Part shown: positions 7,718 through 48,113 of the stretch, piece after piece
Layout of the letters: each line of letters opens with the position of its first letter
Position numbering within the stretch: the first letter of the stretch is position 1
Assembly (NCBI GenBank): GCA_003560095.1
Contig: PWJI01000010.1
Coordinates: forward strand, 1-50,678
DNA: 50,678 nucleotides
Direction of reading: 5' to 3'
Source: Candidatus Nealsonbacteria bacterium
Lineage (GTDB): Bacteria; Patescibacteriota; Minisyncoccia; Minisyncoccales; PWPS01
Translations under genes and position numbers: made by a program
Notes under the pieces: generated by a model
The model's input: the letters and a program-made list of their open reading frames with translations, nothing else
The model's database searches: none
What the model was told of the DNA's origin: nothing

Positions 7718-9025
7718 TTAATAATCTCTCACACATCTCACAGAAGCTGTTCCTCTTGCATCTCTACAATTGCGCCTAATCCCCGTTTCATTATAATTAA
7801 TTTCTCTTGTTGCATAAGCCGCTCTGGCAATACCACACTGAGCATCTCCATGTGCCGAAGTTGATGACCAAAAAAAACCATCCTCCCCCATTCCGCGAAA
7901 TGTACCCAAACTATGACCCAGCTGATAGCCCGAAGGAAGAGCATCAAACCCTAAATCACCAAATAAATTATTTTCTTTTAAATCTCCTTCTTTCCAAAAA
8001 TCATAATTTCCAGAAAGCTTACTTCCCTCGTCGCTTCCTCGAAAACCATAATCTTTAGCATATCTTTCATTTAATCCTATTTCAGTTTCTAAAACTACCC
8101 AATCTTCATCGGTAGGAATTCTCCACCCTAAAGGGCATATTCCTTGCACTCCTTCTCCTTCTTGACCACAAAAAGCACTTCTAATGTCATAAAGTCCACC
8201 GTAACGATTACAATTACCTATGCTATCTTGATAACAATAACGTTTAACTTGGCAATCAATGTCGGTTTCTCCTTCCTCGATATTCAAATTTTCCTGTATC
8301 CAGCATTGATCAGCAATTCTTAAAGTATTATATTCTTCTTTTCCATATTTAATTAGGTCTCCACACTCCCACGCACTGTCTGTTATTACGCTAACCTCTT
8401 TGCTGTAATCACTTTCCTCATCATTTGCAATTTGAGTAATTGCATAAAAATATCTTTTTCCGGGAACAACATCCCTATCAGAATAATTTTCATTAACAGA
8501 TCTGCCTATTTCTTCATATATTCCTCCTTCGTAATCAGTTCTATAAATAACGTACTTCTCTTTCCCGACAGAATAATCCCAAAACAAATCTACTCTAGGC
8601 TCAAGGTTCTTATGAAAGCTTACTCTTTCCCCTCTAAGCCCCTCTGGTGGCTTTGGGGCAGTAATAGCACTTGCAACCGAACTAAAAGAACTTTCTGTAA
8701 TATTAATTGTTTGAGTAACTCTATAATAATACTCAGTAGAAGGATCAAGCCCTTTATCCAAGTATTCCTCTTTGGTAGAAAACCCTACACTTCTCCCGAA
8801 AGGTCCGTCAGGATTTTCAGATCGATAAATATTAAATTGCACCGCCCTTTCATCACCATCCCAAGTAAGCTTTATCTCACTGTCAGACCTTGTCTCCGCA
8901 GAAAGATGGGTCGGAACATTTTCTTCTCTAACCGATAAAATAACAATGAGTAAGATAATAAAAATTATAGGTAAAGACCAAAAAAAAGCTTTCTTTTTAT
9001 TAATTTTAGATAATTTTTCTTGCAT
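7718..9025 (-). CDS. type II membrane protein: two FN3-like domains plus a C-terminal Fib_succ_major (TIGR02145-type) domain
   Basis: It has an N-terminal TM. The FN3-like segments are IKLTWDG..FNIYRS..STEYYYRVTQ and VDLFWDY..YVIYRT..KRYFYAITQ (about 8381-8908). The C-terminus (7721-8371) has IADQCWIQENLN, YGGLYD, CPLGWRIPTDEDW, GFDALPSGY, FFWSSTS and SVRCVRDY. Confidence 0.75.
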   Translation of the reverse strand: MQEKLSKINKKKAFFWSLPIIFIILLIVILSVREENVPTHLSAETRSDSEIKLTWDGDERAVQFNIYRSENPDGPFGRSVGFSTKEEYLDKGLDPSTEYYYRVTQTINITESSFSSVASAITAPKPPEGLRGERVSFHKNLEPRVDLFWDYSVGKEKYVIYRTDYEGGIYEEIGRSVNENYSDRDVVPGKRYFYAITQIANDEESDYSKEVSVITDSAWECGDLIKYGKEEYNTLRIADQCWIQENLNIEEGETDIDCQVKRYCYQDSIGNCNRYGGLYDIRSAFCGQEGEGVQGICPLGWRIPTDEDWVVLETEIGLNERYAKDYGFRGSDEGSKLSGNYDFWKEGDLKENNLFGDLGFDALPSGYQLGHSLGTFRGMGEDGFFWSSTSAHGDAQCGIARAAYATREINYNETGIRRNCRDARGTASVRCVRDY

Positions 9026-9038
9026 TTTCTTAAAAATA

Positions 9039-10352
9039 TTAATTATCAGAAGATTCTTCTTCTTTTTCGCTGGTTAGTTTTTTTATTTTTTCTTTAGCTT
9101 TTTTCAATTCTTTCTTTAATTCAATCATTTTAAGTTCTCTGCCAACCATCATTTTACTCATTTTTTCGTATTCTTTTATCTTCTTCTCCATTTCCTCTGT
9201 TCTTTTTTTAACTTCAGCCTCTAGTTTTTCATTTATTTCGCTTAGCTCTTTTGTTCTTGCTTTTACTTTGACTTCCAAAATATCTTTTTCTTCCTCTTTC
9301 TTCTTGCTTATCTTGCCTAAATCATCAACCATTTTATTAAAATTCTCTGCCAATTCCCCAAACTCATCTTTTGATTTTATTTGCGCATAAGAATTAAAAT
9401 CACCTTTTGCAACTCTTTTTGCGGCAATGGAAATGTCTTTTAGGGGTTTCATTACTCTTCTTGAAATGAAAAAAGAAACCAAGATAATGGGCAAAAAGAA
9501 AGCAATTGACAAAAGGAGATAATAGGTTGCCATCTCACTTAAAAGCCAAACTGCACCCTCCCGTGAACGTGCAGTTATTAAATGCCAATTTAGCTCATAA
9601 TCTTCATTCCCAAAATTCATATTTCGAAAATTAGCATTCATTATGCTCCCCTCAAAATGAAACTCTGTACTTCCTTCGCTTCTTTGCAGATTTTGGTGTA
9701 GCGGATAAGCATCCGTTATTTTTTCGAAAATATAATCTCTATCAGAAGAAAATATAATAATCCCATAAGGATTTAAAATAAACACTACTCCTTTTGCTGC
9801 TATTGCCGTATCAATTATTCTAAATAGCCCCCCCATATCAACTTGAACAACAATATAAGAAACATACCTATCTTCTTTAATTTCATGGGGAATAAAAACT
9901 GTTATCGCAGAATCTCTTGACTCAGAAATAATATGAGCCTCTGAAACAATTGTTTGCTCCTCACTCTTTGCCTTTAAAAACCATGGATTTTTAGCCCAAT
10001 CTTCTCTTTCTCCGGTAGAAAAAACTGTTTCTCCGGCCTCATTAACAACAGATATTTTTCTAAAAAAAGATTGATTTTTGGATATTTCTTTTAATGCTTC
10101 TTTTTTTTCTTGAGTAGAATAATTCTTATCTCTTAGTTTATGATTATCAGTAATAAGTTCAGCACTTTTAACTGCATTACTTATAAAAATATCTGCTTTT
10201 ACAGAAATCAAGTCTCCGGTCTCTTTTGCTCTTTCATAATTCGTATTTTGAATATATGAATTAAAAAAATAAAAAAGAAAACCCCCTCCAATAAAGAGAG
10301 GCAAAGACCCTATTAAGATCAAAATAATTATTAGATTAGTCCTAAATTTCAT
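9039..10352 (-). CDS. Cache-like sensor plus HAMP domain transducer ending in a coiled coil, with no recognisable output domain
   Basis: TM1 spans aa 7-29, an extracytoplasmic region of about 240 aa follows, and TM2 spans aa 273-295. The HAMP domain is PLKDISIAAKRVAKGDFNSYAQIKSKDEFGELAENFNKMVDDL (about 9315-9467). The coiled coil runs LEVKVKARTKEL..KEYEKMSKMMVGRELKMIELKKEL to the stop. Confidence 0.7.
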   Translation of the reverse strand: MKFRTNLIIILILIGSLPLFIGGGFLFYFFNSYIQNTNYERAKETGDLISVKADIFISNAVKSAELITDNHKLRDKNYSTQEKKEALKEISKNQSFFRKISVVNEAGETVFSTGEREDWAKNPWFLKAKSEEQTIVSEAHIISESRDSAITVFIPHEIKEDRYVSYIVVQVDMGGLFRIIDTAIAAKGVVFILNPYGIIIFSSDRDYIFEKITDAYPLHQNLQRSEGSTEFHFEGSIMNANFRNMNFGNEDYELNWHLITARSREGAVWLLSEMATYYLLLSIAFFLPIILVSFFISRRVMKPLKDISIAAKRVAKGDFNSYAQIKSKDEFGELAENFNKMVDDLGKISKKKEEEKDILEVKVKARTKELSEINEKLEAEVKKRTEEMEKKIKEYEKMSKMMVGRELKMIELKKELKKAKEKIKKLTSEKEEESSDN

Positions 10353-10403: not shown

Positions 10404-11075
10404 TTAATCAAGGGAATTTTCGTTTTTTTCTTTCTTTTCTCGTAACTCTTTTAGCTCTTTCTTCATTTCCATCATTCTTAGTTCTCTGCCAACCATGAGT
10501 TTACTCATTTTTTCGTATTCTTTTATTTTCTTATTTAATTCTTTCGTTCTCTCTTGAACCTCATTCTCTAACTTTTCATTCATCTCTTCTATTTCTTTGG
10601 TTCTAGCGCTAACCTGAACCTCTAAGACTTGCTTTTGCTCTTCTAGTGAAATTTGCTCCTTTAATTTTTCCACCATTTTATTAAATCGTTTTGTAAGCTC
10701 TCCTATTTCGTCATTATCATAAATTTTAACCCTCACATCAAAATTACCTTTGGTTACTTTTTTTGTACCACTATCAAGCCTTCTTATTGGCTTGGAAATA
10801 TTTCTAGCCAATAATATAGATCCAAACAAAGAAAGAATAATAACTATAAATAGCGTTAAAAGTGACTGCGTTCCAATATCAGTCATAAGGGGTAAAAATT
10901 CTTTTCCTGCCTCCACAACATTCTTATTTTTATGATTTTCAAAAAAATTTACTAAAGATTGTTGGTATGAAAAATTAATAAGAAAGCCTGCTACAATTAC
11001 AGGAAAGACAGTAAATAAAAAAGAAGATAAAACAAGCTTTCCAAAAACACTTTTTAGCATAGATCTTTTTTTCAT
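10404..11075 (-). CDS. short HAMP-domain transducer, paralogue of the C-terminal half of 9039..10352
   Basis: Two TM helices flank a loop of about 35 aa. The HAMP domain is KPIRRLDSGTKKVTKGNFDVRVKIYDNDEIGELTKRFNKMVEKL. The tail is the same as the neighbour's: LEVQVSARTKEI..KEYEKMSKLMVGRELRMMEMKKEL. Confidence 0.7.
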   Translation of the reverse strand: MKKRSMLKSVFGKLVLSSFLFTVFPVIVAGFLINFSYQQSLVNFFENHKNKNVVEAGKEFLPLMTDIGTQSLLTLFIVIILSLFGSILLARNISKPIRRLDSGTKKVTKGNFDVRVKIYDNDEIGELTKRFNKMVEKLKEQISLEEQKQVLEVQVSARTKEIEEMNEKLENEVQERTKELNKKIKEYEKMSKLMVGRELRMMEMKKELKELREKKEKNENSLD

Positions 11076-19052: not shown

Positions 19053-20294
19053 CTAACCCTTAATACATCTAACAGAAAGACCGCTTTCTAAAATAAGCGG
19101 TATCCTTTTTATCTCCGGATAACCGGAATAAAGCATCCTTACGAAAGCAGAAGATTCTTTTTTAGTAGACGTCCAAAAACCTGTTCCAATATCAATTCCA
19201 TTAAATTCTCCGCTGGGCTCTCTTCCCCCGGCAGGCAGAGCAGAAAAGTTACTTATATCACTACCATCCCACTCTTCTGACTTTATTTTTTCACCTTCAT
19301 TTGAACCTCTCCACTTAATTTCGTTTGCTTGTGTTAAGCTCATTCCAAGAGCTCTTTCCATTTCCCTAAACTCTTCATCGGTTGGTAATCTCCATCCCCT
19401 AGGACAAACATCTACGGCATCATTGTAATTATATAGTCGCCCATAAGAATCACAATTTTCTTCTTGATTTTCATAACACCAACTTTCATCCGTTTCATAA
19501 TTCAAATTTTCTGCCATCCAGCAATACCGTCCAATTTGTACAATATCATATCTTAAATTATTTCTATGATCGGTATGCGTACTAAGTCCTTCACAAGGAT
19601 TACCATTTGCAAAAGGCAATTCTTCCTCACCTTCCTCTTCTTCTTGAGTGTCTTCTTCGTCTTCTGTGCTCTCTTGTGGTATATCATGACACATTCCGTC
19701 ATACCAATAAAAACCATTTTCTAAGCACTCTTCTTCATTTTCAATGTTTTCAAGAGAAATATCGTTGTCTTGCTGATCCTCTTCCTCTCCTTCTTCCTCT
19801 TGTTGCGGAGTTTCATAACACATTCCGTTATACCAATAAAAACCATTTTCTAAGCACTCTTCTTCATTTTCAATATTTTCAAGAGAAATATCTTCCTCTT
19901 TCTGTGGATCCTCATGACACATTCCGTCATACCAATAAAACCTTTTTTGTGCACACTCTTCTCGAGTCTCAATAGTGCTTGGATCATCGTCTCTGTCTTC
20001 TCCTACTTCTTCATGACACATTCCGTCATACCAATAAAAGTTTCTTTCTATACACTCTTCCTCGTTTCTAATTTCTTGTGCGTCAATATCCGGCAAAGGG
20101 TCGTAATGACATTTATTCTCATACCAATAAAACCCCTCTTCTTCACAGCGCTCCTTGTTTTTAATATTTTCAGGTATGGCATCTCTTCCATTTTCAAAAG
20201 AAGAATCCTCTCTTCCCGTAAAAAGCATTATAATTATCCCAAAAAAGAGTAGAAAAAAGCCTATACCTATAATTATTATTGTTTTTTTACTCAT
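19053..20294 (-). CDS. anchored surface protein: five C-x3-G-F-Y-W-Y-x3-C repeats plus a C-terminal Fib_succ_major domain
   Basis: The repeats are CEEEGFYWYENKC, CIERNFYWYDGMC, CAQKRFYWYDGMC, CLENGFYWYNGMC and CLENGFYWYDGMC. The C-terminus (19056-19559) has GRYCWMAENLNY, YGRLYNYNDA, CPRGWRLPTDEEF, FSALPAGG, GFWTST and SVRCIKG. Confidence 0.75.
   Translation of the reverse strand: MSKKTIIIIGIGFFLLFFGIIIMLFTGREDSSFENGRDAIPENIKNKERCEEEGFYWYENKCHYDPLPDIDAQEIRNEEECIERNFYWYDGMCHEEVGEDRDDDPSTIETREECAQKRFYWYDGMCHEDPQKEEDISLENIENEEECLENGFYWYNGMCYETPQQEEEGEEEDQQDNDISLENIENEEECLENGFYWYDGMCHDIPQESTEDEEDTQEEEEGEEELPFANGNPCEGLSTHTDHRNNLRYDIVQIGRYCWMAENLNYETDESWCYENQEENCDSYGRLYNYNDAVDVCPRGWRLPTDEEFREMERALGMSLTQANEIKWRGSNEGEKIKSEEWDGSDISNFSALPAGGREPSGEFNGIDIGTGFWTSTKKESSAFVRMLYSGYPEIKRIPLILESGLSVRCIKG
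19685..20147 (-). repeat. in-frame tandem coding repeats (period about 105-130 nt) encoding the Cys-hairpin motif
   Basis: 19685-19764 and 19814-19893 are 80-nt copies differing at 4 positions by my alignment. More diverged copies start near 19912, 20021 and 20105; all contain ATACCAATAAAA (the reverse complement encodes FYWY). Confidence 0.8.
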
Positions 20295-24958: not shown

Positions 24959-27079
24959 TTAAGGCCTTAAAACACAGCGAACATGATAATATTCAAAATC
25001 TTTATCTCCGTAAAGACTTTCCCCTGAAAAAAAGTTTAACTTTCTTGCTTGCATAAAAGAACTTTCGGTAGAAGACCAATAAAAATTAGGAGTTGCGTTA
25101 TAGTCCCAGTAAGGAGCACAAGGTTCTCCCTGAAATTTACTCTCGCTTTTTAGACAATTTTCATAAAATTTTTCCAGTGTTCCTATGGCAGGCAAATACC
25201 AGTCATCTCTACCGGCATAGCTTAGCTCATTACAAGCATATGCTGCCATATTTTTTTCGGGGCAACTGGCATCTATTATTGCTTGATTGTTTTCTTTTTC
25301 TTTTTCATAATGATTGGCTCCGACATAATCTTCTTTGCATCCCCATTGATACTGAGAAGCAGGAAATTCATCAGCTGGAAGACTAAGTGTAGGAGTCCAT
25401 AAATTAAGATCAAAATCGCAATAAACTGTCTCTCCTTCAATTTCTATGCTTACATCCTTATGCTCTTTGCGCGTACAAAATTTACTTAAATCTCCAAGAA
25501 TAATTTTTGTACATATATTATTAATGCACTCGTGTCCGCTTGGACAATCTCCATAGTTGTGTCTTAAAATACAATTCCTGCTCTCTTTTGAGTGGCCAAC
25601 ACAATCGCTTCCTCCATATTCCGGCTTGGGATTATTACACTCTCTTGTTCTTGTTTTTTGTCCATACGCAGGAGCTTCCCCACACATTGCTCCACCGTCG
25701 TGCTCGATTACACAATCACTCCAATCACTCCACTCTCCCCAACCTCCATCCACCGGGACCATTTCTCCATAGCATTCATTTTCATGCCACTCATAGCCCA
25801 TCTCCTCACATTCTAATTTTGAAGTAAGAACATCGGGAGAGGGAAAATCAGAAAAACAAGCTCCATTATACCAATAAAATTTATTTTCTTCGCATTCTTT
25901 TTTAGATAAAATATTTTCAGGAGAAATTTCTTTCATTCTTTCTTCTTTTGGCATTTCATAACATCCTCCTTCGTACCAATAAAGACCCTCCCTTTCACAT
26001 ATATCTTGGATAGTGAGTCTTTCTATTCTTTGAGCAGTATCTATTGAAAACCAAGTAAAAAACCCAATGATAAAAATAATAGAAAAGAAAGAGAATATTA
26101 TTATTGAAAAAGCAACTTTTTGATTAATTTCTTTTCCAAGTATTTCAATTACTGATTTTTTTCTTTTTTGTTCTTCCAAGAAATAATGTTTTTCGTCTTG
26201 ACCAACTGCTTTATCTTCTTCAAAAAAATCTTCTTTTCCTTCTTTTGGCTCTTTCTCTTCTTCTTTTTCTGAAGGTTTTTCTTCAATAATCCTCTCCTCT
26301 AAGCGTTCTTTTTTCTTATCATCTTCTTTTTGCTTAAGTCCCATTTTTCTAATTCTTTCTTTTATATCTAATCTTTCCAATTCTTTTTCTCTTCTTTTAT
26401 CTTCTAACTCCCATCTTTTCTTTATGATTCTTATTCTTTTTTTAATATCTTTTTCTTGCTTTGCCTTTAGCTCAATCTCATCCTTTTCTTTTTTGATTGA
26501 TTCTATTTCACCACTAATTGAGAGTAGTCTTTTGCTTAGTTTTGTTCTATCTTCTTTTGTTTTTGCCTCTTTGTGTTCTTCTTTTTCTGTCAAAAAACTT
26601 TCTGCCTCTTTTTTTTCTTCCTCTTTCGCTTTCTTTCTTATTTTTTCTATTAATTCTCTTTCATTTTCCTCTTCCTTTGTATTCTTTTTTTTCTCATCCC
26701 TTTTAGTTGATTTATTTAAAATCATATCAACCTTTCCCCCTATTTCATCAAGATTAAATTTAGCCACTATAAAATAGTTTTCCGCTCCATATTTTTTAAT
26801 CTTTTCTATGTCTTCTTTGCTTCCCACATTGGAAGCAGCAATTACCGGAATGTCAGAAATATCCTTTCTTTCTTTTATCTTTTTTAAAAAATCAAAATTA
26901 TTTTTTTTGAACCCCTCCGTGCTCGCCAAAATAAGGGCGGGATAAATTTCTTTTATTTTTAAAAACGCCTCTTCTTCTGTTTTTAAAAGAAAAGCACCAT
27001 AGCCCATCTCTTTGAGCTTGTTTTTTAAAAGCTCTCCTACTTCTTTATTATTTTCAACAATAATTACTTTTTTAGCCAT
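24959..27079 (-). CDS. type II membrane protein: degenerate receiver domain, K/E-rich coiled coil, TM, three Cys-hairpin repeats, a TSP1 repeat, a small Cys knot and a DUF1566-type domain
   Basis: 706 aa. The TM is [23 protein letters not shown] (aa 322-344, 26048-26116) with basic residues on the N-side. See the sub-features. The C-terminus has [23 protein letters not shown] and [10 protein letters not shown] (DUF1566 / Lcl C-terminal-like pattern). Confidence 0.7.
25571..25747 (-). other. thrombospondin type-1 repeat (TSR) coding segment
   Basis: [59 protein letters not shown]. Codon positions were verified on the DNA (W447 = 25739-25741, C503 = 25571-25573). Confidence 0.75.
26720..27079 (-). 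other. receiver (CheY-like) fold domain lacking the acidic phospho-acceptor pocket
   Basis: Aligned by eye to CheY, KVIIVENN replaces the DD pair and ALILAST puts Ser at the D57 position. PVIAASN retains the T87-equivalent Ser and YFIVAKF retains the K109-equivalent Lys. Confidence 0.6.
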
Positions 27080-27116: not shown

Positions 27117-27926
27117 TTAGCTCAATACACTTTTCTCCATTTCTTCTTTTATTTTCTCCTCTATTTTTTCTACTTCTTTTATAATTTGAACTATTTTATT
27201 TCTTATTTCCTCTTTTTCGTAAACTATCGGTAGAAGATCAATTGCTGTTTGCCTTATCTCTTGAGCTCTCTTTTTTTGACTAATGATTTTTTTATTTTCT
27301 TCCCTTATCCTTAAAAATCTTTCTATCTTTATTTCCAGTTCTTCTTTTTGTAATTCAAGATTATCTTTTACTTCTTCCAATTGGAAATAAATTTCATTTA
27401 ATTTATTTCTAATGTCACTTTCCTTTACCTCTCTTAATAAAAGCTGAACAATAGAAAGAAGATCTTGACTTCTTTTTTTTGCTTCATTTATTCTGCTCAT
27501 TTGCAATTCTTTTCGAGACAAAAATCTTTCATCCATAAAATCTACTTCTTTCTCAAAAACAGCCATTATTTCTGTATCTTTTTCTAGTAAAAAAGAATGC
27601 TCTTTCTCTCGACTAACAATTACTCCCTCCTTTTCCCATCTAGAAAAATAAAAACCTTTTTGTGGTGATGCTTTTACTATAGCCTCCTCCTTCTTTCCAT
27701 ATTTTATTTCGCTTTGCACCTCTCCTCTCTCCCTATCTTTTACCTTAACGGTAAGAGTATAGGTGGGTTCTCTAAGAGTAAATCTTACTTTAGCGTTATC
27801 AAAATCTAATCGAGTATCTTCTTTTAAAAAAGAGTTCTCGGCAGAAACGCCTACAAAACCAAAAAGCAATATTACTTTTATAATAAAAATAGGAATATAG
27901 TATGAAATCTTCCTTTTGTTAATCAT
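27117..27926 (-). CDS. secreted protein: divergent InlB B-repeat-like domain plus a coiled coil of about 145 aa (mini-paralogue of the C-terminus of 39018..41906)
   Basis: Signal/anchor is [90 protein letters not shown] aligns with aa 744-812 of the 962-aa protein. A helical K/E-rich tail with an LLPIV motif follows. Confidence 0.5.
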
Positions 27927-35046: not shown

Positions 35047-35814
35047 CTAAAACTCGGGAATCATGCTATCGATATCTATGTCATCAAAATCATCCGGAAC
35101 ATGGTCCATAATGTCATCCGGAATGTCATTCATAATATCATCCGTAGAAGTAGGAACCTCCACAACAGGAGTACCTTCGGGAAGCTCAAATTTATCATCC
35201 GAAAATTCATCAAAAACTACATTTTTTATTTCTGTTACAGTTTCGTTAATTTCAAACTTAACGGGCAAACCATGCTCTTCCCATATCCACATCTTTCCGG
35301 TAGATTCTTCGTTTTGAGCATATTCAACTACAATACACTCCATTCCGTTTACTGTTTCTCTTCCTATCACCACAGGATTTCTTTCAGGAAGTTCTTCAGC
35401 CTGATATTTGGCAGAACTTTCCTTTACTTCCTCTACATCACTAAAATCAACTTTTGTAGCCACATCTCGATCAGGAAAATAAGTATGAACTGTTCTTTCT
35501 TCGTTATCCATAATTACTACCGTCTCCTCTCCCATGACATTGCCTTCCATTCTTATTTTGTCACCTTTTTGCCACATTTTTCCTTCCAGTTTTTGAGAGG
35601 GAGAATCCATTTCCACATCATAACTTACATAACTTACTTCTTTTGCACGCTCAATTATTCCCATAAACTCTTCGTGTTCCATTTCTCCTTTTACAAAAGA
35701 TTCTTCAATATCGTTGATATCTGGATCAACTACTTCTTTATCTTCTCTTGTAAGAATAAAAGCCCCTCCTCCGACTAAAACTACAAGAGCTAAAATAATA
35801 ATAACACCTTTCAT
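35047..35814 (-). CDS. N-terminally anchored LolA-fold-like protein with an acidic C-terminal tail
   Basis: YVSYDVEMDSPSQKLEGKMWQKGDKIRMEG...CIVVEYAQNEESTGKMWIWEEHGLPVKFE...DDKFELPEGT belongs to the paralogue set with 12915..13604 and 29224..29850. Confidence 0.45.
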   Translation of the reverse strand: MKGVIIILALVVLVGGGAFILTREDKEVVDPDINDIEESFVKGEMEHEEFMGIIERAKEVSYVSYDVEMDSPSQKLEGKMWQKGDKIRMEGNVMGEETVVIMDNEERTVHTYFPDRDVATKVDFSDVEEVKESSAKYQAEELPERNPVVIGRETVNGMECIVVEYAQNEESTGKMWIWEEHGLPVKFEINETVTEIKNVVFDEFSDDKFELPEGTPVVEVPTSTDDIMNDIPDDIMDHVPDDFDDIDIDSMIPEF

Positions 35815-37027: not shown

Positions 37028-38995
37028 CTATCTTAAAACACAACGAACATAATGAAAAGGAAAATTCTTTTCTTCAGAAGAGATATCCCCTGAGTAGAAA
37101 TTAAGCCTTTGTGCAGAAAAAGAATCAGACTCGGTAGAAGACCAATAATAGCCATTAATCGCATTATCATCCCACGAAGGCTTGCAAGGACCACTAGTCC
37201 CACCCCCTTGATTAATTAAACAATCTCTATAAAGATCATTTACTCTATTTATAGACGGCAAGGCCCAGTTTTGCTTTCCTCCATAACTTAGATTAGCACA
37301 TACAACTGCGGCACTAATTTCATCAGCACAATCACTATTTTTTATTAATTGTGTGTTGTTTCCATCATACATCTCAGAAGAAGCACCTACCTCTTCGCCA
37401 TAACAGCCCCATTCATATGCAGTAGAGCTTTCTGTTGTTGCAGGCAGTCGCAAAGTGGGTGTCCAGATATTAAGTTCCAAGTCACAATAAACCAAATCTC
37501 CCCCTATAAAAGAGCTTGTACTTTTATGCTCTTCTATTGTGCAAAATTCAGCAGGCTCTTCTGGGGGCGCGAAAGTAACTTCGGTGCAAATATTATTAAT
37601 ACACTCATACCCATCCCAGCAACCACCAAAATACCTGTCAACAAAACAAGTTTCAGTTTCTTCTGAAGAGCCTTCACATTCTTTTCCTCCATACTCCGGC
37701 TTAGGATTATTACATTCTCTGCTTCTAGATCTTTTTCCCTCCATTCTAATGCTTCCACAATCAAATGACCTTTCATCTACAACCTTGCACTCGCTCCAAG
37801 CACTCCAATTACTCCATCCACCATCTATCTTAATGGGTTCTTTTTGACACACATCTTCCTGCCAATAATATCCTGCTTCTATGCACCTTTCTTTAGAATC
37901 AATTTCTTCTAAAAAATCATCTTCCTCGTTTTCCTCTTCTTCCTTCTTCTTTTCTTCCTTTTCTTCCTTTTCTTCCTCAATGTATTGCTCTATTTCCTGA
38001 GAATCATCTTCTTGTTCTTTGAAAAAAATTTCCTCATAAGGATTTACTTCTGTCACATATGCTGCATCTTCTTCTTGAGAGTATTGAAAATTAAAATCAT
38101 TAAAAATAAAGAAATAAAGAAAAACTACTCCTACTCCAAAAATTCCTCCCATCAAAAGAAAAATTATTTTACTTTTTACAGTCAATTCCTCTCTTTTTTC
38201 ATCGTCATAAGAATTGTCTTTTGAAAAATCATTACCTCCTTTATTATTAGAAGAAATATCGGGGACTAATTCTTCTTTTTCTTCTTCTTTAGGAGAAGTG
38301 TTTTTTTCTTGAAGAGGTGGAGTAGTTTTCTCTTGTTCTATCTCCTCTTTACTGCTTTCGTAAGGCTTTTTTTTGAAAGATTTTATATCTTTCTTGTTTA
38401 CAGCAGAAAAAGATTGTTTAAAATTCAAAATTTTAAGAAGCTCTTCTTGTTTTTTGTCCTTAGGAGGTGGGGTGATTTTCTCTTGCTCTATCTCCTCTTT
38501 GCTACTTTCATAAGAATTATCTTCCAAAGAATCAGTGTCTTCTTTTTTGGAGGGAATATCGGAAGCTAATTCTTCTTTTTCTTCTTCTTTTTTTTCTTGA
38601 GCAGAAAGATTTTCTTCTGGATGACCTTTTTCCTGAAAAGATGAAGTGGCTTTCTCTTGCTCTATCTCCTCTTTGCTACTTTCATAATATTTATCTTCTA
38701 AAGAATCTGTAACTTTTTTGTCAGAAAGGGTGTCAAGGGCCAGTTCTTTATTCTTTTCTTCAGTAGAAAAATTTTCTTCTGGATAATCTTTTTCTTCTTT
38801 TTTTTCTTTTTTGTTTTGCCTAATTATTTCTCCTATAATTTGTTCCGGACTAAACCCCATCTCCTGAGCACGCTTAAAAGAACTTTCTCTTTCCGGCAAA
38901 TTTTCCCTAATTTCTTTCAAAAGAAGTTCGTCACTCTTGCCCTCCTCCTTTGCCTGTAAAATAAAATTTAATATATCTACTTTATTATTGCTCAT
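37028..38995 (-). CDS. type II membrane protein: shared N-terminal module, repeat-rich acidic cytoplasmic region, TM, Cys hairpin, TSP1 repeat, Cys knot and a DUF1566-type domain
   Basis: The start is taken at ATG 38995 (MSNNKVDIL..); the ORF track extends to 39037 and would overlap the upstream gene. The TM is [22 protein letters not shown] (38102-38170). The C-terminus has [24 protein letters not shown] and FHYVRCVLR. Confidence 0.7.
37646..37825 (-). other. thrombospondin type-1 repeat (TSR) coding segment, second copy
   Basis: [61 protein letters not shown]408 was verified at 37814-37816. Confidence 0.75.
38256..38700 (-). repeat. imperfect in-frame coding repeats ([12 protein letters not shown] x3, EEEKEEL-x-DI-x-S x2)
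   Basis: ATATCGG..CTAATTCTTCTTTTTCTTCTTCTTT occurs at 38256-38290 and 38556-38590. TTTCTCTTG(T/C)TCTATCTCCTCTTT occurs near 38327, 38477 and 38651. Confidence 0.75.
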
Positions 38996-39017
38996 AAAGA
39001 TTAAAGAATCTAAGAAG

Positions 39018-41906
39018 CTACAAAGATAAATTATCAAAAAATACTAGCTCTTGATCTATCCTTCTCTCCACCTTTTTTATGCTTTCTAAGACTTCCATTA
39101 AGCTACTCCTAATAACCTCATCGTGATCTATTATTGGAAGAATTCTTCCAATGGTATTTTTTAAATTTACTACTCTTTCTTTTTTAGAAAGTAAGCGCTC
39201 TTTTTCTTTTTTAAACCTTGAAAGTTGTTCTAATTTTTGCTCCTTTTTTTCTTTTATCCTTTGCTCTATGTTTTTTATTCTATTTTTAACATCTCCCATT
39301 TCTTCCTTTAAGAAAAATAATTCTTCAATATTCTGTTCTTCTATCTGTATTAAAAGATTATCAATCAATCCAAGCATATTATTTACCCTTTCCTCTTGTT
39401 TTGTTAATTCTTCCATCCTTTCTTGTGTTCTTTTAAGCTCAATACCTTCTCCTAAATCTCCGGAAAGCCTGAATACACCTACTATCTCCCGATTTTTTTC
39501 TACAACAAATGTATACTCTCGTGTTCCGCTTAGCATAAGTCCCTCTTCCTCCCATCCGTAAAAATAATATCCGCTTTCAGGTATTGCTTTTATAGTAACT
39601 TCCTCGCCCTTTCTGTAAGTACCTGCATTTTTCACTTCTCCTCCTTTGTTATTTGCAACAATTAATTTAATATCGTACCTGGTTGCTCCTCCTCCGCCTC
39701 CACCCCCACTGCTTCTTTGCTTTATTTCTTCCCACTTAGCATAAACAGTAATATTTTCAATAATAATGGTTGATGAAGTAAAAGTATCTCCTTCTCCATT
39801 TTCCTGAGTATTCCACTCAACAAAATTATATCCATCTCTTGATGCTGAAAGAAGAGAGCCCACCTCTTTTTCGGGATTTATTATTTTTGTTTGACTTGAT
39901 GGACTTCCTTCGTTTCCATCAAAGTTTACAGCATATTGCCACGAAAAAAACGGATACTTCTCGCCATCTATTATATTCCATTTAAAATTAATGTTTGTTT
40001 CTCCCGGATTAACATCCATTATATCCCAAGAACTTTCCAGTCCTTGTGTATCAGTATTGTTATAAGTTGATATCTCTTTCATTTCATTTGTTTCTTTACC
40101 GGTCCCTCCTCCCATGCTTATTTCTGTTTGACTAGATTGAATATCCCAAAAAGAATTTACTACATTGACAGAAAGATTTTCTGGATATCCCACAAAACCA
40201 CCTACATCACTTTCTCCGGTCACCTCACTTTTTGAGTATGATTTTGAAATATCTCCGGGAGAATTGGTATTGCCATTTTTTCCAACAAGACCACCGACTC
40301 TATTTTCTCCCTCAACTAATCCCCTAGAATGGCTATTTTCAATATCACCTCCTCTATTTAAACCAACAAGACCACCTATGCTTTCTAAACCCTTAACCGT
40401 AGCATCTGCATAAGAAGTTTTTACCAAATTTCTATTATCTCCAACAAGACCACCGACTCTATTTTCTCCCTCAGACGCTCCTTCAAAATAACTTTTTTCT
40501 ATTATTCCTCCATTATACCCAACAAGACCACCTACTCTGTTTGCCTCTCCTCCATCAACACTTCCTATTGCAAAAGAAAGATTTATTGTTCCTTCATTTG
40601 CTCCAATAAGACCACCTATCTCTCCCCCAGAGTCACTTATAACATTTCCTTTAAAAGAAGAGCTTTCAATTATTCCGTTAGCCACTCCCGCAAAACCCCC
40701 GCAAGAAGTAGAAACATCAAGTTCACAATAAACATATCCTTCTATTATATGAACATTATTAATTTCTCCTAAACCTAAATAACCAACAATCGATCCAACT
40801 CCAGCCCAGTCACCTGTTCCCGTAATATTGCTATCTTCAATATTAATGTTTTCTAAAGTGGCTTCTGATCCCAAATATCCAAATAAGCCTATATGATTAA
40901 AGCTATGGTTTGCCGCATTTCTGCTAATATATAAATTAGAAATAGTATATCCTTGCCCATCCAAGGAACCATCAAAAGAATTCCCCTCCTCTCCTATGGG
41001 TTTGAATCCTCTTCCATCATTCCAATTCTCCGTATCTAGGCAATCAATATCATTTACCAAAACATAGTCTTTTATTAAATTATCTTCCATTTCTTGCAAT
41101 TCTTGACAACTAGAAATATGTCTTATCCATTGAGCATAAACGTCAACATCTTCAGTAATAATAGACTCTGAGGTAAGCTCATCTCCTGTTCCGTCTTGCT
41201 GCTTATTCCATTCAATAAAAGTATGTCCATCTCTTGACACTGATGGAAGTGGCCCCATTTCTTGCCCATGCTCTACTCCGGCCATAGCCACTTTTTGGAA
41301 TTCACCTCCTTCGCTGGTATAAAAATTTACAGTGTATACATTTATCTCCCATTGAGCATAAACGGTAACGTCTTCTATGACATTAGTTTCTGTTGTAAAA
41401 GCGCTTCCTTCTCCGTTTTCCTGAGTATTCCATTCAAGGAAGGTGTGTCCTTCTCTTGTTACTGTGGGTAGTGGATCTATTGTGCTTCCGTACTCTACTG
41501 TTTCTGTTTGTGTTGCTGGAGTTCCTTCGTTGGCGTTGAAGGTTACAGTATATTCATTTATTTCCCACTGTGCATAAACGACAATATCTTCGGTAATAAT
41601 GGTTGATGAAGTAAAAACATCTCCCTCTCCGTTTTGCTGCGTATTCCATTCAATAAAAGTATGTCCATCTCTTAACACTGATGGAAGATCTCCCACCGAG
41701 CTACCTTCCTCTACTTCTTTTGTTTGAGTTGAAGGAGATCCTCCGTTTCCATCAAAATTTACCGTATACTTTTGCTCATGAGGAGTAATATTATTGTATG
41801 TTGATTGACCATCACCCTCACTGTGAAAATAATTCGCATCAACAAAAGCTCCTGCTCCTAAAAAAAAGATAAATATGTAGAATATTGCTATATATTTTTT
41901 CACCAT
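39018..41906 (-). CDS. large secreted protein: three Listeria-Bacteroides (Flg_new) repeats, a GLUG-motif repeat region, a fourth Flg_new repeat, a Gly7 linker, a divergent InlB B-repeat and a C-terminal coiled coil
   Basis: 962 aa with a signal peptide. Flg_new units read [28 protein letters not shown] (41127-41771; fourth at 39732-39938). GLUG-type repeats read [12 protein letters not shown]-x-S (about 39942-41114). The B-repeat lies at 39468-39680 and the coiled coil at 39021-39449. There is no LPXTG or C-terminal TM. Confidence 0.75.
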
Positions 41907-42722: not shown

Positions 42723-43250
42723 TTATTCAACCAATTGACACTCTCCCTCTATGCACTTTGGCTCTGCAAAGCACGTCCAGTGATTGGATATCACTGTCAT
42801 GCATATGGTTTCTTCGGGATCACAATCATCTAACATCTTCTTTTCCCAATAATCCAAATACTTTTTATTTATAGCAATGGCGGTTCCGCCATGATTACAA
42901 TCGCAACAACCATCCGCAACGGAAATGCAATCACTGTCTGTATTACAATAATAAGGCATCTCTTTATTGGCAACTTCAATGTCTTTTTTTTCTTTACTCG
43001 TTGCTTCTTGTTTTTGAGAATCAAGACCATTTTCTTGACCCATTTCATCTGATTCAAGCACATCTCCTTCTTCCTTCTCCTCTTCTTTCTTTTCACTGTC
43101 TAGCGCCTCTTCCTTTTTGTCGTTAATATCTTCTTCAAACAAGCCCTGCTCTTTTTCTTCTTGGGCTATAAGTAAAACACTTGCTCCCGCTACTCCGGCA
43201 ACAAATAATATTATTAAAGCTCCTGTTATTGTGGGTATTTTCTTTTTCAT
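42723..43250 (-). CDS. anchored protein with a 10-Cys C-terminal domain, unknown family
   Basis: Anchor is ITGALIILFVAGVAGASVLLIAQEEKE, followed by an acidic linker. Then comes YYCNTDSDCISVADGCCDCNHGG...DDCDPEETICMTVISNHWTCFAEPKCIEGECQLVE. Confidence 0.45.
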   Translation of the reverse strand: MKKKIPTITGALIILFVAGVAGASVLLIAQEEKEQGLFEEDINDKKEEALDSEKKEEEKEEGDVLESDEMGQENGLDSQKQEATSKEKKDIEVANKEMPYYCNTDSDCISVADGCCDCNHGGTAIAINKKYLDYWEKKMLDDCDPEETICMTVISNHWTCFAEPKCIEGECQLVE

Positions 43251-43253
43251 AAA

Positions 43254-48020: not shown

Positions 48021-48113
48021 AGTTATCTTTAGTTATATTTTTAATTTACTTTGCACTATTTAAGTATATCACAAAACAAGCCTCAATGGTGTTTTGCGGC
48101 TATTACAAAAAAA

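What the first reader, a model, noticed from the sequence alone, without database searches (positions are those of the whole stretch)
25571..25747. Thrombospondin type-1 repeats (TSR) in two bacterial membrane proteins
The 24959..27079 product contains [12 protein letters not shown]-x9-CG-x5[31 protein letters not shown]. Its paralogue (37646..37825) contains [12 protein letters not shown]-x9-CG-x5[31 protein letters not shown]. Both keep the defining TSR elements:
- the WxxWxxW tryptophan ladder;
- the RxRxC arginine layer that stacks on it;
- the C-x2-P-x-P-x2-GG-x2-C-x-G turn;
- Cys in TSR order, with only the first Cys-Cys loop longer than in animal TSRs.

TSRs are signature modules of metazoan and apicomplexan adhesion/matrix proteins and are uncommon in bacteria. 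Here they are displayed outside the membrane, between a novel Cys hairpin and a lectin-like DUF1566 domain, in what looks like a reduced-genome bacterium. That makes them strong candidates for partner- or host-cell attachment modules, arising either by inter-domain transfer or as an ancient bacterial TSR lineage.
Basis: partly seen in the sequence, partly recalled or inferred. Interest (0 to 1): 0.8.

Follow-up and report, generated by a model that had tools for sequence, protein, structure and literature searches.

The report
Thrombospondin-type repeats in a CPR surface protein
Two related membrane proteins of an ultrasmall (Patescibacteria/CPR) bacterium carry a real but divergent thrombospondin type-1 repeat outside the cell, next to a lectin-like domain. 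They are most likely cell-attachment proteins, and they show that this "animal" adhesion module also occurs in bacteria that live attached to other cells.

Summary
On the minus strand, 25544-25750 (ORF 24959-27079) and 37619-37825 (ORF 37028-38995) encode true thrombospondin type-1 repeats (TSRs).

- **Sequence evidence:** phmmer against solved TSRs gives E=1.5e-16, and profile-profile comparison gives 99.7% probability.
- **Structure evidence:** a confident AlphaFold model (pLDDT 77-98 over the TSR) matches only TSR crystal structures in its first 34 Foldseek hits.
- **Why annotation misses them:** family-specific loop insertions, including C-x9-C where 752 of about 780 compared TSRs have C-x3-C, hold Pfam TSP_1 at or below threshold.
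- **Protein layout:** single-pass, N-in/C-out. The order is cytoplasmic receiver-like or charged region, TM helix, Cys hairpins, TSR, then an acidic Lcl_C/DUF1566 lectin-like head.
- **Host:** a Patescibacteria (CPR) bacterium.
- **Rarity:** only three protein clusters among billions share this architecture. All three sit directly downstream of a secreted Flg_new/GLUG/Flg_new_2 coiled-coil protein.
- **TSRs in other bacteria:** a narrow pattern scan found 16 bacterial genomes with TSRs, 13 of them Patescibacteria, Bdellovibrionota or Myxococcota. These are fused to pilins, proteases, VWA and Ig-like domains.

The attachment function is inferred, not shown, and the origin (transfer versus ancient lineage) cannot be resolved. 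I rate this a new variant of a known kind, of moderate interest.

The parts
24959..27079 (-). Gene for protein 1 (706 aa): REC-like domain, charged region, TM helix, 3 Cys hairpins, TSR, Cys extension, Lcl_C-type module
   Evidence: ORF. The identical protein occurs in three independent assemblies: NCBI GCA_003567755.1 and two Logan runs.
26714..27079 (-). Protein 1 aa 1-122: receiver (REC)-like domain, predicted cytoplasmic. The phospho-acceptor Asp is replaced by Ser.
   Evidence: Pfam Response_reg 24.5 bits, below GA 30.2. phmmer against PDB: DivK 2.6e-7, with CheY and PhoB also matched; 'LILAS' aligns to DivK 'LILMD'. Partial NCBIfam response-regulator hits.
26117..26713 (-). Protein 1 aa 123-321: K/E-rich charged linker (63% K+E+R+D), no Cys
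   Evidence: Composition; sequence.
26048..26116 (-). Protein 1 aa 322-344: the single transmembrane helix ([23 protein letters not shown])
   Evidence: Highest Kyte-Doolittle window, 2.7 over 19 aa. All 22 Cys lie C-terminal of it.
25772..25999 (-). Three Cys hairpins C-E-x-x-G/K-[LFY]-[YE]-W-[YH]-x3-C, at 25961-25999, 25856-25894 and 25772-25810
   Evidence: Sequences. DNA-level repeat family D1 is shared with gene 19053-20294 and with protein 2.
25544..25750 (-). Protein 1 aa 444-512: thrombospondin type-1 repeat with W447/W450/W453, K-T-R-T-R, six Cys and three loop insertions
   Evidence: E=1.5e-16 to 3r6b; hhalign 99.7%; pLDDT 77-98; Foldseek ranks 1-34 are all TSRs. Pfam TSP_1 is only 15.4 bits.
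25511..25543 (-). Protein 1 aa 513-523: extra Cys pair ([11 protein letters not shown]), forming a beta-hairpin extension after the TSR
   Evidence: Conserved in all three family members. Strands 99-102 and 105-108 in the model.
24962..25510 (-). Protein 1 aa 524-706: extended Lcl_C/DUF1566 C-type-lectin-like module with 8 Cys and net charge -12
   Evidence: Pfam Lcl_C 36.0 bits, GA 34.9. Foldseek hit to Legionella Lcl-CTD 8q4e: E=9.3e-3, TMt 0.48. Charge. Homologues often carry pilin N-termini.
37028..38995 (-). Gene for protein 2 (655 aa from the ATG; the mechanical ORF extends to a TTG at 39037). Acidic repeat-rich N-terminus, TM helix (38102-38167), one hairpin, TSR, extension, Lcl_C module.
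37847..37885 (-). Protein 2 Cys hairpin ([13 protein letters not shown])
37619..37825 (-). Protein 2 aa 391-459: thrombospondin type-1 repeat (W-x2-W-x2-W, R-S-R-S-R, six Cys)
   Evidence: Pfam TSP_1 21.9 bits, GA 21.6..
37031..37618 (-). Protein 2 aa 460-655: Cys extension plus Lcl_C-type module (net charge -16)
   Evidence: Pfam Lcl_C 33.0 bits.
27117..27926 (-). Partner gene 37 bp upstream of protein 1: signal/anchor, Flg_new_2 (InlB B-repeat), long helical tail
   Evidence: Pfam. Paralogous to the C-terminus of 39018-41906 (31% identity, E=6e-31). A promoter-like site lies upstream of this gene only, and no terminator-like site lies before protein 1 (weak evidence).
39018..41906 (-). Partner gene directly upstream of protein 2: signal peptide, Flg_new x4, GLUG, Flg_new_2, helical tail
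   Evidence: Pfam. Orthologue sits directly upstream of P0019 in L020 (36% identity over 617 aa, E=2e-90).

Best explanation
**Shown.** The two segments encode genuine, divergent thrombospondin type-1 repeats. Each has the Trp ladder on strand A, alternating basic residues on strand B, six Cys in canonical order and the elongated three-strand fold. Both carry family-specific insertions in three loops.

**Inferred from sequence and prediction.** Each protein crosses the membrane once with its N-terminus inside. Inside the cell is a receiver-like domain (protein 1) or an acidic repeat region (protein 2). Outside are the Cys hairpins, the TSR, a small disulfide hairpin and a C-type-lectin-like Lcl_C head.

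**Inferred mechanism.** These are surface attachment or recognition proteins of a Patescibacteria episymbiont.
- The hairpins and the disulfide-braced TSR form a rigid stalk, and possibly a secondary binding face.
- The stalk projects the lectin-like head towards a ligand on a partner cell, probably a glycan or another surface polymer.
- They act together with the co-encoded secreted Flg_new/GLUG/Flg_new_2 protein.
- In the protein 1 / P0019 type, the cytoplasmic receiver-like domain may link the adhesin to two-component signalling.

The TSR was most likely recruited by domain shuffling among bacterial surface proteins, not by a recent transfer from a eukaryote.
For: **TSR identity**
- phmmer E=1.5e-16 to TSP-1 TSR2-3. 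The best single repeat gives i-E=5e-9, with W aligned to W, R to R and C to C.
- hhalign 99.7% probability.
- AF2 pLDDT 77-98 over the repeat, with a rippled first strand and two long beta-strands.
- Foldseek ranks 1-34 are all TSR structures. Rmsd is 1.2-2.7 A over 63-65 columns for the complement-complex chain 8b0f_E and for UNC5.

**Topology**
- One strong hydrophobic segment, and all 22 Cys lie after it.
- The N-terminal domain is a REC fold, which is cytoplasmic by nature.

**Lectin-like head**
- Pfam Lcl_C reaches its gathering threshold.
- Foldseek hits the Legionella Lcl C-terminal domain.
- That domain is a C-type-lectin-like adhesin module (PMC11162425).
- The nearest relatives of the C-module (36-41% identity) are fused to type IV pilin N-termini, so the module is displayed on pili elsewhere.

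**Host lineage**
- Patescibacteria, whose cultivated members are obligate epibionts (abstracts listed).

**Functional partner**
- The gene pair is present in 3 of 3 cases, in two genomes.
- TSP_1 and Flg_new_2 are fused in one Patescibacteria protein, L010.

**Bacterial pool of TSRs**
- Found on long bacterial contigs and fused to bacterial domains.

**Native composition**
- GC3 is 0.24-0.25 for both genes and 0.27-0.35 for the TSR segments, in a window of 33% GC.
Against: - There is no experimental evidence and no known ligand, host or expression data.
- Pfam TSP_1 passes its threshold only for protein 2 (21.9 against 21.6). Protein 1 (15.4) and P0019 (18.4) fall below it.
- Residues 110-200 of the model, the first half of the C-module, are low-confidence.
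- The C-module has no sequence-level PDB match, and its Foldseek TM-score to Lcl is only 0.48.
- Both the TSR and the C-module are net acidic. The heparin/GAG-type binding known for animal TSRs and for Legionella Lcl therefore cannot simply be carried over.
- The receiver-like domain of protein 1 lacks the phospho-acceptor Asp, and protein 2 has no such domain at all. Signalling therefore cannot be a general property of the family.
- The helical tail of the partner protein is extracellular, whereas the charged region of the TSR proteins is cytoplasmic. The two cannot pair with each other.
Confidence: 0.6

Rival explanations
1. Recent inter-domain transfer. The TSR was acquired directly from an animal or protist and serves as mimicry, to bind the extracellular matrix or cell surface of a eukaryotic host.
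For: - The repeats are 50-53% identical to TSRs of a ctenophore, amphioxus and oyster.
- TSRs are far more numerous in eukaryotes. Most of the 150 best hits are long multi-TSR proteins, and most of the ten looked up are metazoan.
Against: - TSRs from Patescibacteria score equally well or better: L010 gives 48.9 bits against 46.4 for the best metazoan repeat, and Magasanikbacteria P0105 reaches 53% identity.
- Codon composition is native.
- The insertion-bearing variant is conserved in a second genome at only 46% identity, so it is not recent.
- The O-fucosylation consensus C-x2-(S/T)-C-x2-G is absent.
- The modules flanking the TSR are bacterial.
Confidence: 0.1
2. The TSR is only a rigid spacer. 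It has no ligand of its own and merely holds the Lcl_C head away from the membrane, so all specificity lies in the lectin-like module.
For: - P0133 and many pilin fusions carry the C-module without any TSR.
- The TSR is net acidic (-5, -4 and -2 in the three members), which does not fit the basic heparin-binding face of animal TSRs.
- The hairpin cassettes next to it look like spacers and vary in copy number: 3, 1 and 0.
Against: - The Trp and Arg layer residues and the C-N-N-P-x-P-E turn are invariant among three members that are only about 49% identical. That is more conservation than a spacer needs, although fold stability alone could explain it.
- TSRs in other bacteria sit at the distal ends of pilins and proteases.
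Confidence: 0.2
3. A transmembrane signalling receptor rather than an adhesin. Ligand binding outside changes the state of the cytoplasmic receiver-like domain, or phosphorylation of that domain changes the clustering of the ectodomain (inside-out control).
For: - A REC-like domain is conserved at the N-terminus of protein 1 and of P0019.
- P0019 keeps the Asp at the phospho-acceptor position ('LLVD').
Against: - Protein 1 has Ser at that position.
- Protein 2 lacks the domain entirely.
- No histidine kinase lies next to either gene.
- A 200-aa low-complexity linker is a poor conduit for a conformational signal.
Confidence: 0.12
4. The Lcl_C module is the variable target of a diversity-generating retroelement, as described for many DUF1566 and Fib_succ_major proteins. 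On this reading the protein is a hypervariable binder.
For: DUF1566 and Fib_succ_major domains are frequent carriers of DGR variable regions (PMC11661182). The window encodes six such proteins.
Against: - No reverse transcriptase was found among the ORFs scanned.
- No template/variable repeat pair lies at the 3' ends of the two genes.
Confidence: 0.03
5. A chance motif, or a contaminating or chimeric eukaryotic fragment.
For: Pfam TSP_1 is marginal, and the precomputed annotation lists only PF07603 for these proteins.
Against: - E=1.5e-16 against solved TSRs and 99.7% by hhalign.
- The fold match.
- The gene lies within a 50-kb bacterial contig with HU, NIF3, VanY and SerRS genes.
- The identical protein is found in three assemblies.
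Confidence: 0.01

Closest known systems
Animal TSRs: thrombospondin-1 TSR2/TSR3 (PDB 1LSL, 3R6B), and the properdin TSR that is the fifth match in the chain
   Same: - W-x2-W-x2-W on strand A, alternating Arg on strand B, the C-x-x-P-x-P-x2-GG-x2-C-x-G turn and six Cys in the same order.
- The same predicted fold.
- 42-43% identity in Foldseek alignments.
- That properdin TSR has the same C-x9-C first loop.
   Different: - Insertions in three loops.
- No O-fucosylation consensus.
- An extra Cys pair after C6.
- A single copy rather than a tandem array.
- Net acidic.
- Sits in a bacterial N-in/C-out membrane protein.
TSR-containing proteins of other bacteria, all unnamed 'hypothetical proteins'. 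Examples: Candidatus Magasanikbacteria OGH87344.1 (the P0105 cluster), and loci L004-L019 from Bdellovibrionota, Myxococcota, Patescibacteria and Pseudomonadota.
   Same: - Bacterial, secreted or surface proteins carrying Pfam TSP_1.
- L010 (Patescibacteria) is the best-scoring single TSR for protein 1 (48.9 bits). It is fused to Flg_new_2, the domain of the neighbouring gene here.
   Different: - Those mostly have canonical C-x2/3-C loops and pass Pfam comfortably (27-186 bits).
- Their partner domains differ: trypsin-like protease, type IV pilin, VWA, Big_2, beta-helix.
- None of them has Lcl_C or a cytoplasmic receiver-like domain.
Legionella pneumophila collagen-like adhesin Lcl (C-terminal domain, PDB 8Q4E; Pfam PF07603)
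   Same: - The C-terminal module matches Pfam Lcl_C.
- The model hits 8Q4E.
- Both are surface-displayed heads with a C-type-lectin-like fold, carried on a stalk.
   Different: - Lcl has a collagen-like triple-helical stalk, no disulfides and a strongly basic GAG-binding face (PMC11162425).
- Here the stalk is hairpins plus a TSR.
- The module has 8 Cys, an extra N-terminal extension of about 70 aa and a net charge of -12 to -16.
Apicomplexan TRAP/MIC2-family adhesins
   Same: A microbe's single-pass membrane adhesin that displays a TSR next to a second binding domain in order to attach to another cell. This is the closest analogy for how the protein may work.
   Different: - TRAP is type I, with a signal peptide and a short C-terminal cytoplasmic tail that couples to the gliding motor.
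- TRAP pairs the TSR with a VWA/I domain.
- Here the orientation is reversed, the second domain is lectin-like and no VWA domain is present.
Type IV pilin-DUF1566 fusion proteins found in metagenomes (P0154, P0155, P0156, P0159, P0166)
   Same: Nearest relatives of the C-terminal module: 36-41% identity across 55-61% of the query for P0154, P0155, P0156 and P0159 (34% over 44% for P0166). The shared F-C-T...Y-C-D...W-T-P-T-L extension is seen in several of these close relatives.
   Different: - Anchored through a prepilin N-terminus (PF07963) instead of a TM helix with a cytoplasmic domain.
- No TSR.

Membership tests
Thrombospondin type-1 repeat (Pfam PF00090 / SMART TSP1) | W-x2-W(-x2-W) motif on the first strand | tested here: met
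   [12 protein letters not shown] and [12 protein letters not shown]. The motif is invariant in all three family members.
Thrombospondin type-1 repeat (Pfam PF00090 / SMART TSP1) | Alternating basic residues (R-x-R, often R-x-R-x-R) on the second strand, aligned with those of solved TSRs | tested here: met
   K-T-R-T-R in protein 1 and R-S-R-S-R in protein 2. They align to Q-K-R-S-R of TSP-1 TSR3 and to the consensus.
Thrombospondin type-1 repeat (Pfam PF00090 / SMART TSP1) | Six Cys in canonical order (pairing C1-C5, C2-C6, C3-C4 in the TSP-1 group) | tested here: met
   The order and alignment of all six Cys match TSP-1 TSR3, with C6 following a 4-residue insertion. The actual pairing cannot be tested without coordinates or mass spectrometry.
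Thrombospondin type-1 repeat (Pfam PF00090 / SMART TSP1) | Score at or above the curated Pfam gathering threshold (21.6 bits) | tested here: inconclusive
   Protein 2 scores 21.9 bits (passes). Protein 1 scores 15.4 and P0019 scores 18.4 (both fail). The loop insertions split the match.
Thrombospondin type-1 repeat (Pfam PF00090 / SMART TSP1) | Significant sequence or profile homology to experimentally solved TSRs | tested here: met
   phmmer E=1.5e-16 (3r6b) and 2e-16 (properdin). hhalign 99.7%, E=2.3e-26.
Thrombospondin type-1 repeat (Pfam PF00090 / SMART TSP1) | Elongated three-strand fold | tested here: met
   AF2 pLDDT 77-98 over the repeat. Foldseek ranks 1-34 are all TSRs with probability 1.00 and rmsd 1.2-2.7 A over 63-65 columns.
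Thrombospondin type-1 repeat (Pfam PF00090 / SMART TSP1) | Stacked Trp/Arg (CWR) layers in three dimensions | not testable with these tools
   The tools do not return model coordinates. The layers are inferred only from the residue-by-residue alignment.
Thrombospondin type-1 repeat (Pfam PF00090 / SMART TSP1) | Typical, not defining: POFUT2 O-fucosylation site C-x2-(S/T)-C-x2-G | tested here: not met
   The first loop is [13 protein letters not shown] (protein 1) and [13 protein letters not shown] (protein 2).
Lcl_C / DUF1566 (Pfam PF07603) | Profile match at the gathering threshold (34.9 bits) | tested here: met
   Protein 1 scores 36.0 and P0019 scores 36.1. Protein 2 scores 33.0, just below.
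Lcl_C / DUF1566 (Pfam PF07603) | C-type-lectin-like fold resembling Lcl-CTD | tested here: inconclusive
   Foldseek hit to 8q4e: probability 1.00, E=9.3e-3, TMt 0.48, 97 columns. Half of the module is modelled at low confidence, and there is no sequence-level PDB hit.
Legionella Lcl-type GAG adhesin | Collagen-like repeat stalk | tested here: not met
   No G-x-y repeats are present in either protein (sequences).
Legionella Lcl-type GAG adhesin | Strongly basic glycan-binding surface on the head | tested here: not met
   Net charge of the C-module is -12, -16 and -4 in the three members. This is a sequence-level proxy only.
Response-regulator receiver domain (PF00072) | REC fold homology | tested here: met
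   phmmer against PDB: DivK 2.6e-7, with CheY and PhoB also matched. Partial NCBIfam response-regulator hits for protein 1 and P0019. Pfam itself is below GA (24.5 against 30.2). Protein 2 lacks the domain.
Response-regulator receiver domain (PF00072) | Phospho-acceptor Asp at the end of beta-3 | tested here: not met
   In protein 1, 'LILAS' aligns to DivK 'LILMD', so Ser stands where Asp is expected. P0019 retains 'LLVD'.
Apicomplexan TRAP/MIC2 adhesins | TSR combined with a VWA/I domain in a type I membrane protein that has a short C-terminal cytoplasmic tail | tested here: not met
   No VWA hit. The TM helix precedes the ectodomain, and the long cytoplasmic part is N-terminal.

The most novel reading that the evidence does not exclude
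TSRs may be a recurrent contact module of bacteria that make their living on the surface of other cells, rather than an oddity of one gene.

- **Lineage bias:** 13 of the 16 bacterial TSR loci recovered with one narrow pattern belong to Patescibacteria (episymbionts), Bdellovibrionota or Myxococcota (predators).
- **Placement:** in those loci the repeats sit on pilins, proteases and VWA adhesins.
- **This family:** it would be the version wired to the cell interior. A TSR-lectin ectodomain is joined through one membrane helix to a receiver-type domain, and it works with a co-encoded secreted InlB-repeat/GLUG protein.

If true, bacteria hold a diverse native pool of TSRs. The origin of this hallmark 'animal/apicomplexan' adhesion domain would then need to be reconsidered, including a possible bacterial source.
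Probability: 0.2. Interest if true: 0.75.

Novelty: new variant of a known kind. Interest (0 to 1): 0.5.

Why it matters
- **How CPR bacteria attach is largely unknown.** The abstracts listed say as much for host recognition by Patescibacteria. A rare, conserved two-gene module now offers a concrete, testable candidate. It consists of a membrane-anchored TSR-lectin protein and a secreted InlB-repeat/GLUG partner, and it is duplicated within one genome.
- **Current annotation misses these TSRs.** The precomputed Pfam assignment lists only PF07603 for all three family members. Bacterial TSRs are therefore under-counted.
- **The apparent lineage bias bears on where the domain came from.** Bacterial TSRs seem concentrated in episymbiotic and predatory lineages. 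If a proper census confirms this, it would link an 'animal matrix' domain to bacterial cell-cell contact. I found no paper in the searchable library that discusses bacterial type-1 repeats.

Tried and rejected
1. **Single-sequence word-index search.** The ectodomain search found only one hit, a eukaryote-like multi-TSR protein. The profile search and the exhaustive search were needed to find the family.
2. **First AF2 run.** With a 4-sequence alignment it gave pLDDT 47 and only weak Foldseek E-values. It was replaced by a 78-sequence alignment.
3. **Origin test.** Best per-domain scores against labelled bacterial and eukaryotic TSRs are interleaved, so there is no resolution. GC and GC3 show no foreign signature.
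4. **DGR hypothesis for the lectin-like module.** No reverse transcriptase and no TR/VR repeat pair were found in the window.
5. **Sequence search of the C-module against PDB.** No hit even at E=10.
6. **Literature searches.** Searches for bacterial type-1 repeats, PF00090 in bacteria and the source accessions returned nothing relevant. 'Thrombospondin' in bacterial papers refers to type-3 repeats.
7. **RNA features.** No tRNA and no Rfam hit in the window.
8. **Promoter and terminator scan.** It gives only weak support for co-transcription of 27117-27926 with protein 1.
9. **Searches not run.** The metagenome and viral scans were not used, because the exhaustive protein search had already covered those sources.


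Full report
**1. The observation**

- Window 25571-25747 (minus) translates to [59 protein letters not shown].
- Window 37646-37825 (minus) translates to the quoted paralogous peptide.
- They lie in ORFs 24959-27079 (706 aa) and 37028-39037.
- The second ORF is more likely to begin at the ATG at 38995 (655 aa), which is the form present in the protein database.
- A six-frame scan finds the Trp ladder and the C-x2-P-x-P turn together only at these two places in the 50.7 kb window.
- The two proteins are 44% identical over their last 291 residues and unrelated before that.

**2. Is it a TSR?** Yes.

*Pfam alone is marginal.* TSP_1 scores 21.9 bits for protein 2 (threshold 21.6), 15.4 for protein 1 and 18.4 for the third family member. 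This explains why the precomputed annotation of all three lists only PF07603.

*More direct tests are decisive.*
- phmmer of the protein 1 segment against all PDB sequences gives thrombospondin-1 TSR2-3 at E=1.5e-16 and properdin at 2e-16. Trp aligns with Trp, Arg with Arg and all six Cys align.
- A profile of the three family repeats against a profile of 20 canonical TSRs gives 99.7% probability, E=2.3e-26.

*Structure prediction agrees.*
- An AlphaFold2 model built from a 78-sequence alignment has pLDDT 77-98 across the repeat. It shows an irregular first strand and two long antiparallel strands.
- Its first 34 Foldseek hits in the PDB are all TSR structures. Rmsd is 1.2-2.7 A over 63-65 columns for the complement-complex chain 8b0f_E and for UNC5 TSRs.
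- I could not read model coordinates, so the Trp-Arg stacking and the disulfide pairing are inferred from alignment, not measured.

**3. What is particular about these repeats**

- Compared with the canonical profile they carry a 6-residue insertion between C1 and C2 and a 4-residue insertion after the C-G. They also have a 4-residue insertion before C6.
- Among about 780 TSRs in the retrieved proteins, 752 have C-x3-C. C-x9-C occurs only in the three family members.
- It is not unknown in animals. One properdin TSR, the fifth match in the chain, has the same C-x9-C spacing and aligns without a gap there.
- The O-fucosylation consensus is absent.
- An extra, invariant Cys pair (…C-I-N-N-I-C) follows C6 and is modelled as a small beta-hairpin.

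**4. Anatomy of the proteins**

*Protein 1, from N- to C-terminus:*
- A receiver-fold domain at aa 1-122. DivK matches at 2.6e-7, with CheY and PhoB also matched, and NCBIfam gives partial response-regulator hits. The phospho-acceptor Asp is replaced by Ser.
- A 200-aa K/E-rich linker.
- One strongly hydrophobic helix at aa 322-344.
- All 22 Cys lie after that helix. They fall in three C-E-x-x-G-Y-x-W-x4-C hairpins, the TSR, the Cys extension and a 183-aa C-terminal module.

*The C-terminal module:*
- It matches Pfam Lcl_C (formerly DUF1566) at 36.0 bits against a threshold of 34.9.
- Its model hits the Legionella Lcl C-terminal domain, 8q4e (E=9.3e-3, TMt 0.48).
- Lcl-CTD is a C-type-lectin-like adhesin head that binds sulphated glycosaminoglycans through a basic face (PMC11162425).
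- Here the module is acidic, with net charge -12 and -16, and so is the TSR (-5 and -4). I therefore do not carry GAG binding over to these proteins.

*Protein 2* has an acidic, repeat-rich N-terminus instead of the receiver-like domain, one hairpin, and otherwise the same ectodomain.

*Topology.* N-in/C-out follows from the cytoplasmic nature of receiver domains, the single helix and the Cys distribution. It is inferred, not shown.

**5. Context**

- The window is bacterial, with 33% GC, and encodes HU, NIF3, VanY, photolyase, SerRS and RNase R.
- Its seryl-tRNA synthetase is closest to named proteins of Candidatus Nealsonbacteria, Uhrbacteria, Parcubacteria and Pacebacteria, at 59-63% identity.
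- The identical protein 1 occurs in NCBI assembly GCA_003567755.1 and in two independent read-set assemblies, so it is not an assembly artefact.
- The window is rich in lectin-like surface proteins: three Fib_succ_major proteins and a third Lcl_C protein.
- The 'novel Cys hairpin' is a shuffled cassette. The same unit occurs five times at DNA level in the Fib_succ_major gene 19053-20294, and it is 77% identical in nucleotides to the second hairpin of protein 1.

**6. How rare is the architecture?**

- An exhaustive HMMER search of the ectodomain against 1.84 billion cluster representatives gave 4401 hits.
- Among the best 150, only three match across TSR plus C-module: the query itself, its paralogue and P0019.
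- P0019 is 516 aa and 46% identical. It has the receiver-like domain, linker, TM helix, the same insertion-bearing TSR, the Cys extension and Lcl_C.
- A profile search of 5.8 billion proteins gave the same three.
- The nearest relatives of the C-module alone (36-41% identity) often carry type IV prepilin N-termini. This fits an adhesive head displayed at a distance from the cell.

**7. A conserved gene pair**

Each of the three genes lies 17-37 bp downstream of a gene for a secreted protein with Flg_new and/or GLUG and Flg_new_2 (InlB B-repeat) domains and a long helical tail:
- 27117-27926 before protein 1;
- 39018-41906 before protein 2;
- L020:1-3687 before P0019.

The evidence is as follows.
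- The partners are homologous: E=6e-31 within the window and E=2e-90 between genomes.
- A different Patescibacteria protein, L010, fuses TSP_1 with Flg_new_2 in one chain.
- The consensus scan shows a promoter-like site only upstream of 27926 and no terminator-like site before protein 1 (weak evidence).

I take this as good evidence for a functional pair. A physical complex remains only a hypothesis.

**8. TSRs elsewhere in bacteria**

*What the scan found.* The one genome-collection scan used just two peptide patterns, one of them [VI]-D-G-G-W-[GS]-[EN]-W. It still returned 16 confirmed loci on bacterial contigs up to 722 kb long:
- 7 Patescibacteria;
- 4 Bdellovibrionota;
- 2 Myxococcota;
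- 2 Pseudomonadota;
- 1 unclassified.

*Pfam confirmation.* TSP_1 is above threshold in 8 of the 10 proteins tested. The repeats are fused to a trypsin-like protease, VWA, Big_2 or Flg_new_2. A ninth protein (L005), which carries a type IV pilin N-terminus, has two TSR-like repeats that stayed below the Pfam cut-off.

*A database example.* A Candidatus Magasanikbacteria protein cluster in NCBI has five TSRs next to a beta-helix domain and is named only 'hypothetical protein'.

*What follows.*
- Bacterial TSRs are real and not very rare. They are unnamed in the records I looked up, and I found no paper in the searchable literature that discusses them.
- The bias towards lineages that attach to other cells is striking.
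- It rests on one narrow pattern and 16 loci, so I present it as a lead, not a result.

**9. Origin**

- The family repeats are 50-53% identical both to metazoan TSRs (ctenophore, amphioxus, oyster) and to CPR TSRs.
- Best per-domain scores against labelled sets are interleaved, with the Patescibacteria locus L010 on top for protein 1.
- Codon composition is native.
- The insertion-bearing form is shared with a second genome at only 46% identity.
- I therefore favour recruitment from a bacterial pool of TSRs over recent transfer from a eukaryote. A 60-residue domain cannot settle this with the tools available here.

**10. Verdict**

- The domain call is solid, at about 0.95.
- The architecture is a new and rare combination, and current annotation misses the TSR in it.
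- The attachment mechanism is the best-supported reading, at about 0.6, but it is inferred. In it, a rigid hairpin/TSR stalk presents an acidic lectin-like head, and the protein works with the co-encoded secreted protein.
- A signalling role for the receiver-like domain is possible for P0019-type members. It cannot be general, because protein 1 lacks the acceptor Asp and protein 2 lacks the domain.
- This is a new variant of a known kind, of moderate interest. The interest would rise if a census confirms that TSRs mark bacteria with contact-dependent lifestyles.

Noticed in passing
window 27117-27926 and 39018-41906 (minus strand); L020:1-3687: Every TSR-Lcl_C gene lies 17-37 bp downstream of a gene for a secreted Flg_new/GLUG/Flg_new_2 protein with a long helical tail. 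The pair is duplicated within this genome and conserved in a second genome.
   Followed up: yes
window 26714-27079 (minus strand); P0019 aa 1-120: A receiver (REC)-like domain is joined through a charged linker and one TM helix to an extracellular adhesin-type ectodomain. This is an unusual output for a receiver domain. Protein 1 has Ser at the phospho-acceptor position, whereas the orthologue P0019 keeps Asp.
   Followed up: partly
window 19688-20185, 25855-25932, 37846-37923: The Cys hairpin with its acidic linker is a DNA-level repeat family. It has five copies in the Fib_succ_major gene 19053-20294 and one detectable copy in each TSR gene (65-95% identity). This suggests cassette shuffling among surface-protein genes.
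   Followed up: partly
window 7718-9025, 19053-20294, 48633-50336, 43254-45554: The window holds an expansion of C-type-lectin-like surface proteins. There are three Fib_succ_major proteins and a third Lcl_C protein that also carries PG_binding_1 and BNR_2. Such domains are known DGR targets, but no reverse transcriptase or TR/VR pair was found in the window.
   Followed up: partly
window 9039-10352 and 10404-11075 (minus strand): Two adjacent paralogous genes (220-nt repeat, 72% identity) encode dCache_1+HAMP and HAMP-only proteins. Neither has a recognisable kinase or MCP output domain.
   Followed up: no
L005:2455-5679 (Bdellovibrionota contig JAWKOD010000002.1): A type IV pilin-like protein (N_methyl, T2SSG) carries two TSR-like repeats with enlarged first loops (C-x7-C). 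These are followed by more than 20 copies of a Cys-rich repeat of about 38 aa (C-x-C-x-L-D...C...Y...C-R-P-A) that has no Pfam match.
   Followed up: no
L004:1774-3417 (Bdellovibrionales contig MEQB01000036.1): A trypsin-like serine protease has a single C-terminal TSR. This echoes the ADAMTS logic (protease plus TSR) in a predatory bacterium.
   Followed up: no
window 38301-38761 (minus-strand gene 37028-38995): The cytoplasmic N-terminus of protein 2 contains three copies of a 50-58-aa acidic repeat (...[12 protein letters not shown]...). At DNA level the 98-nt core is 74% identical between copies.
   Followed up: no
window 43149-43266 / 47919-48036 and 45168-45269 / 50577-50678: Two further dispersed repeats of 100-120 nt (75-79% identity) lie at the 5' ends or upstream regions of neighbouring surface-protein genes. 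They may be shared leader or promoter segments of paralogues.
   Followed up: no
window 35047-35814 (minus strand) and 35101-35778 (plus strand): Two long ORFs overlap almost completely on opposite strands. The minus-strand ORF has no Pfam hit and the plus-strand ORF was not scanned, so which strand codes is unclear.
   Followed up: no
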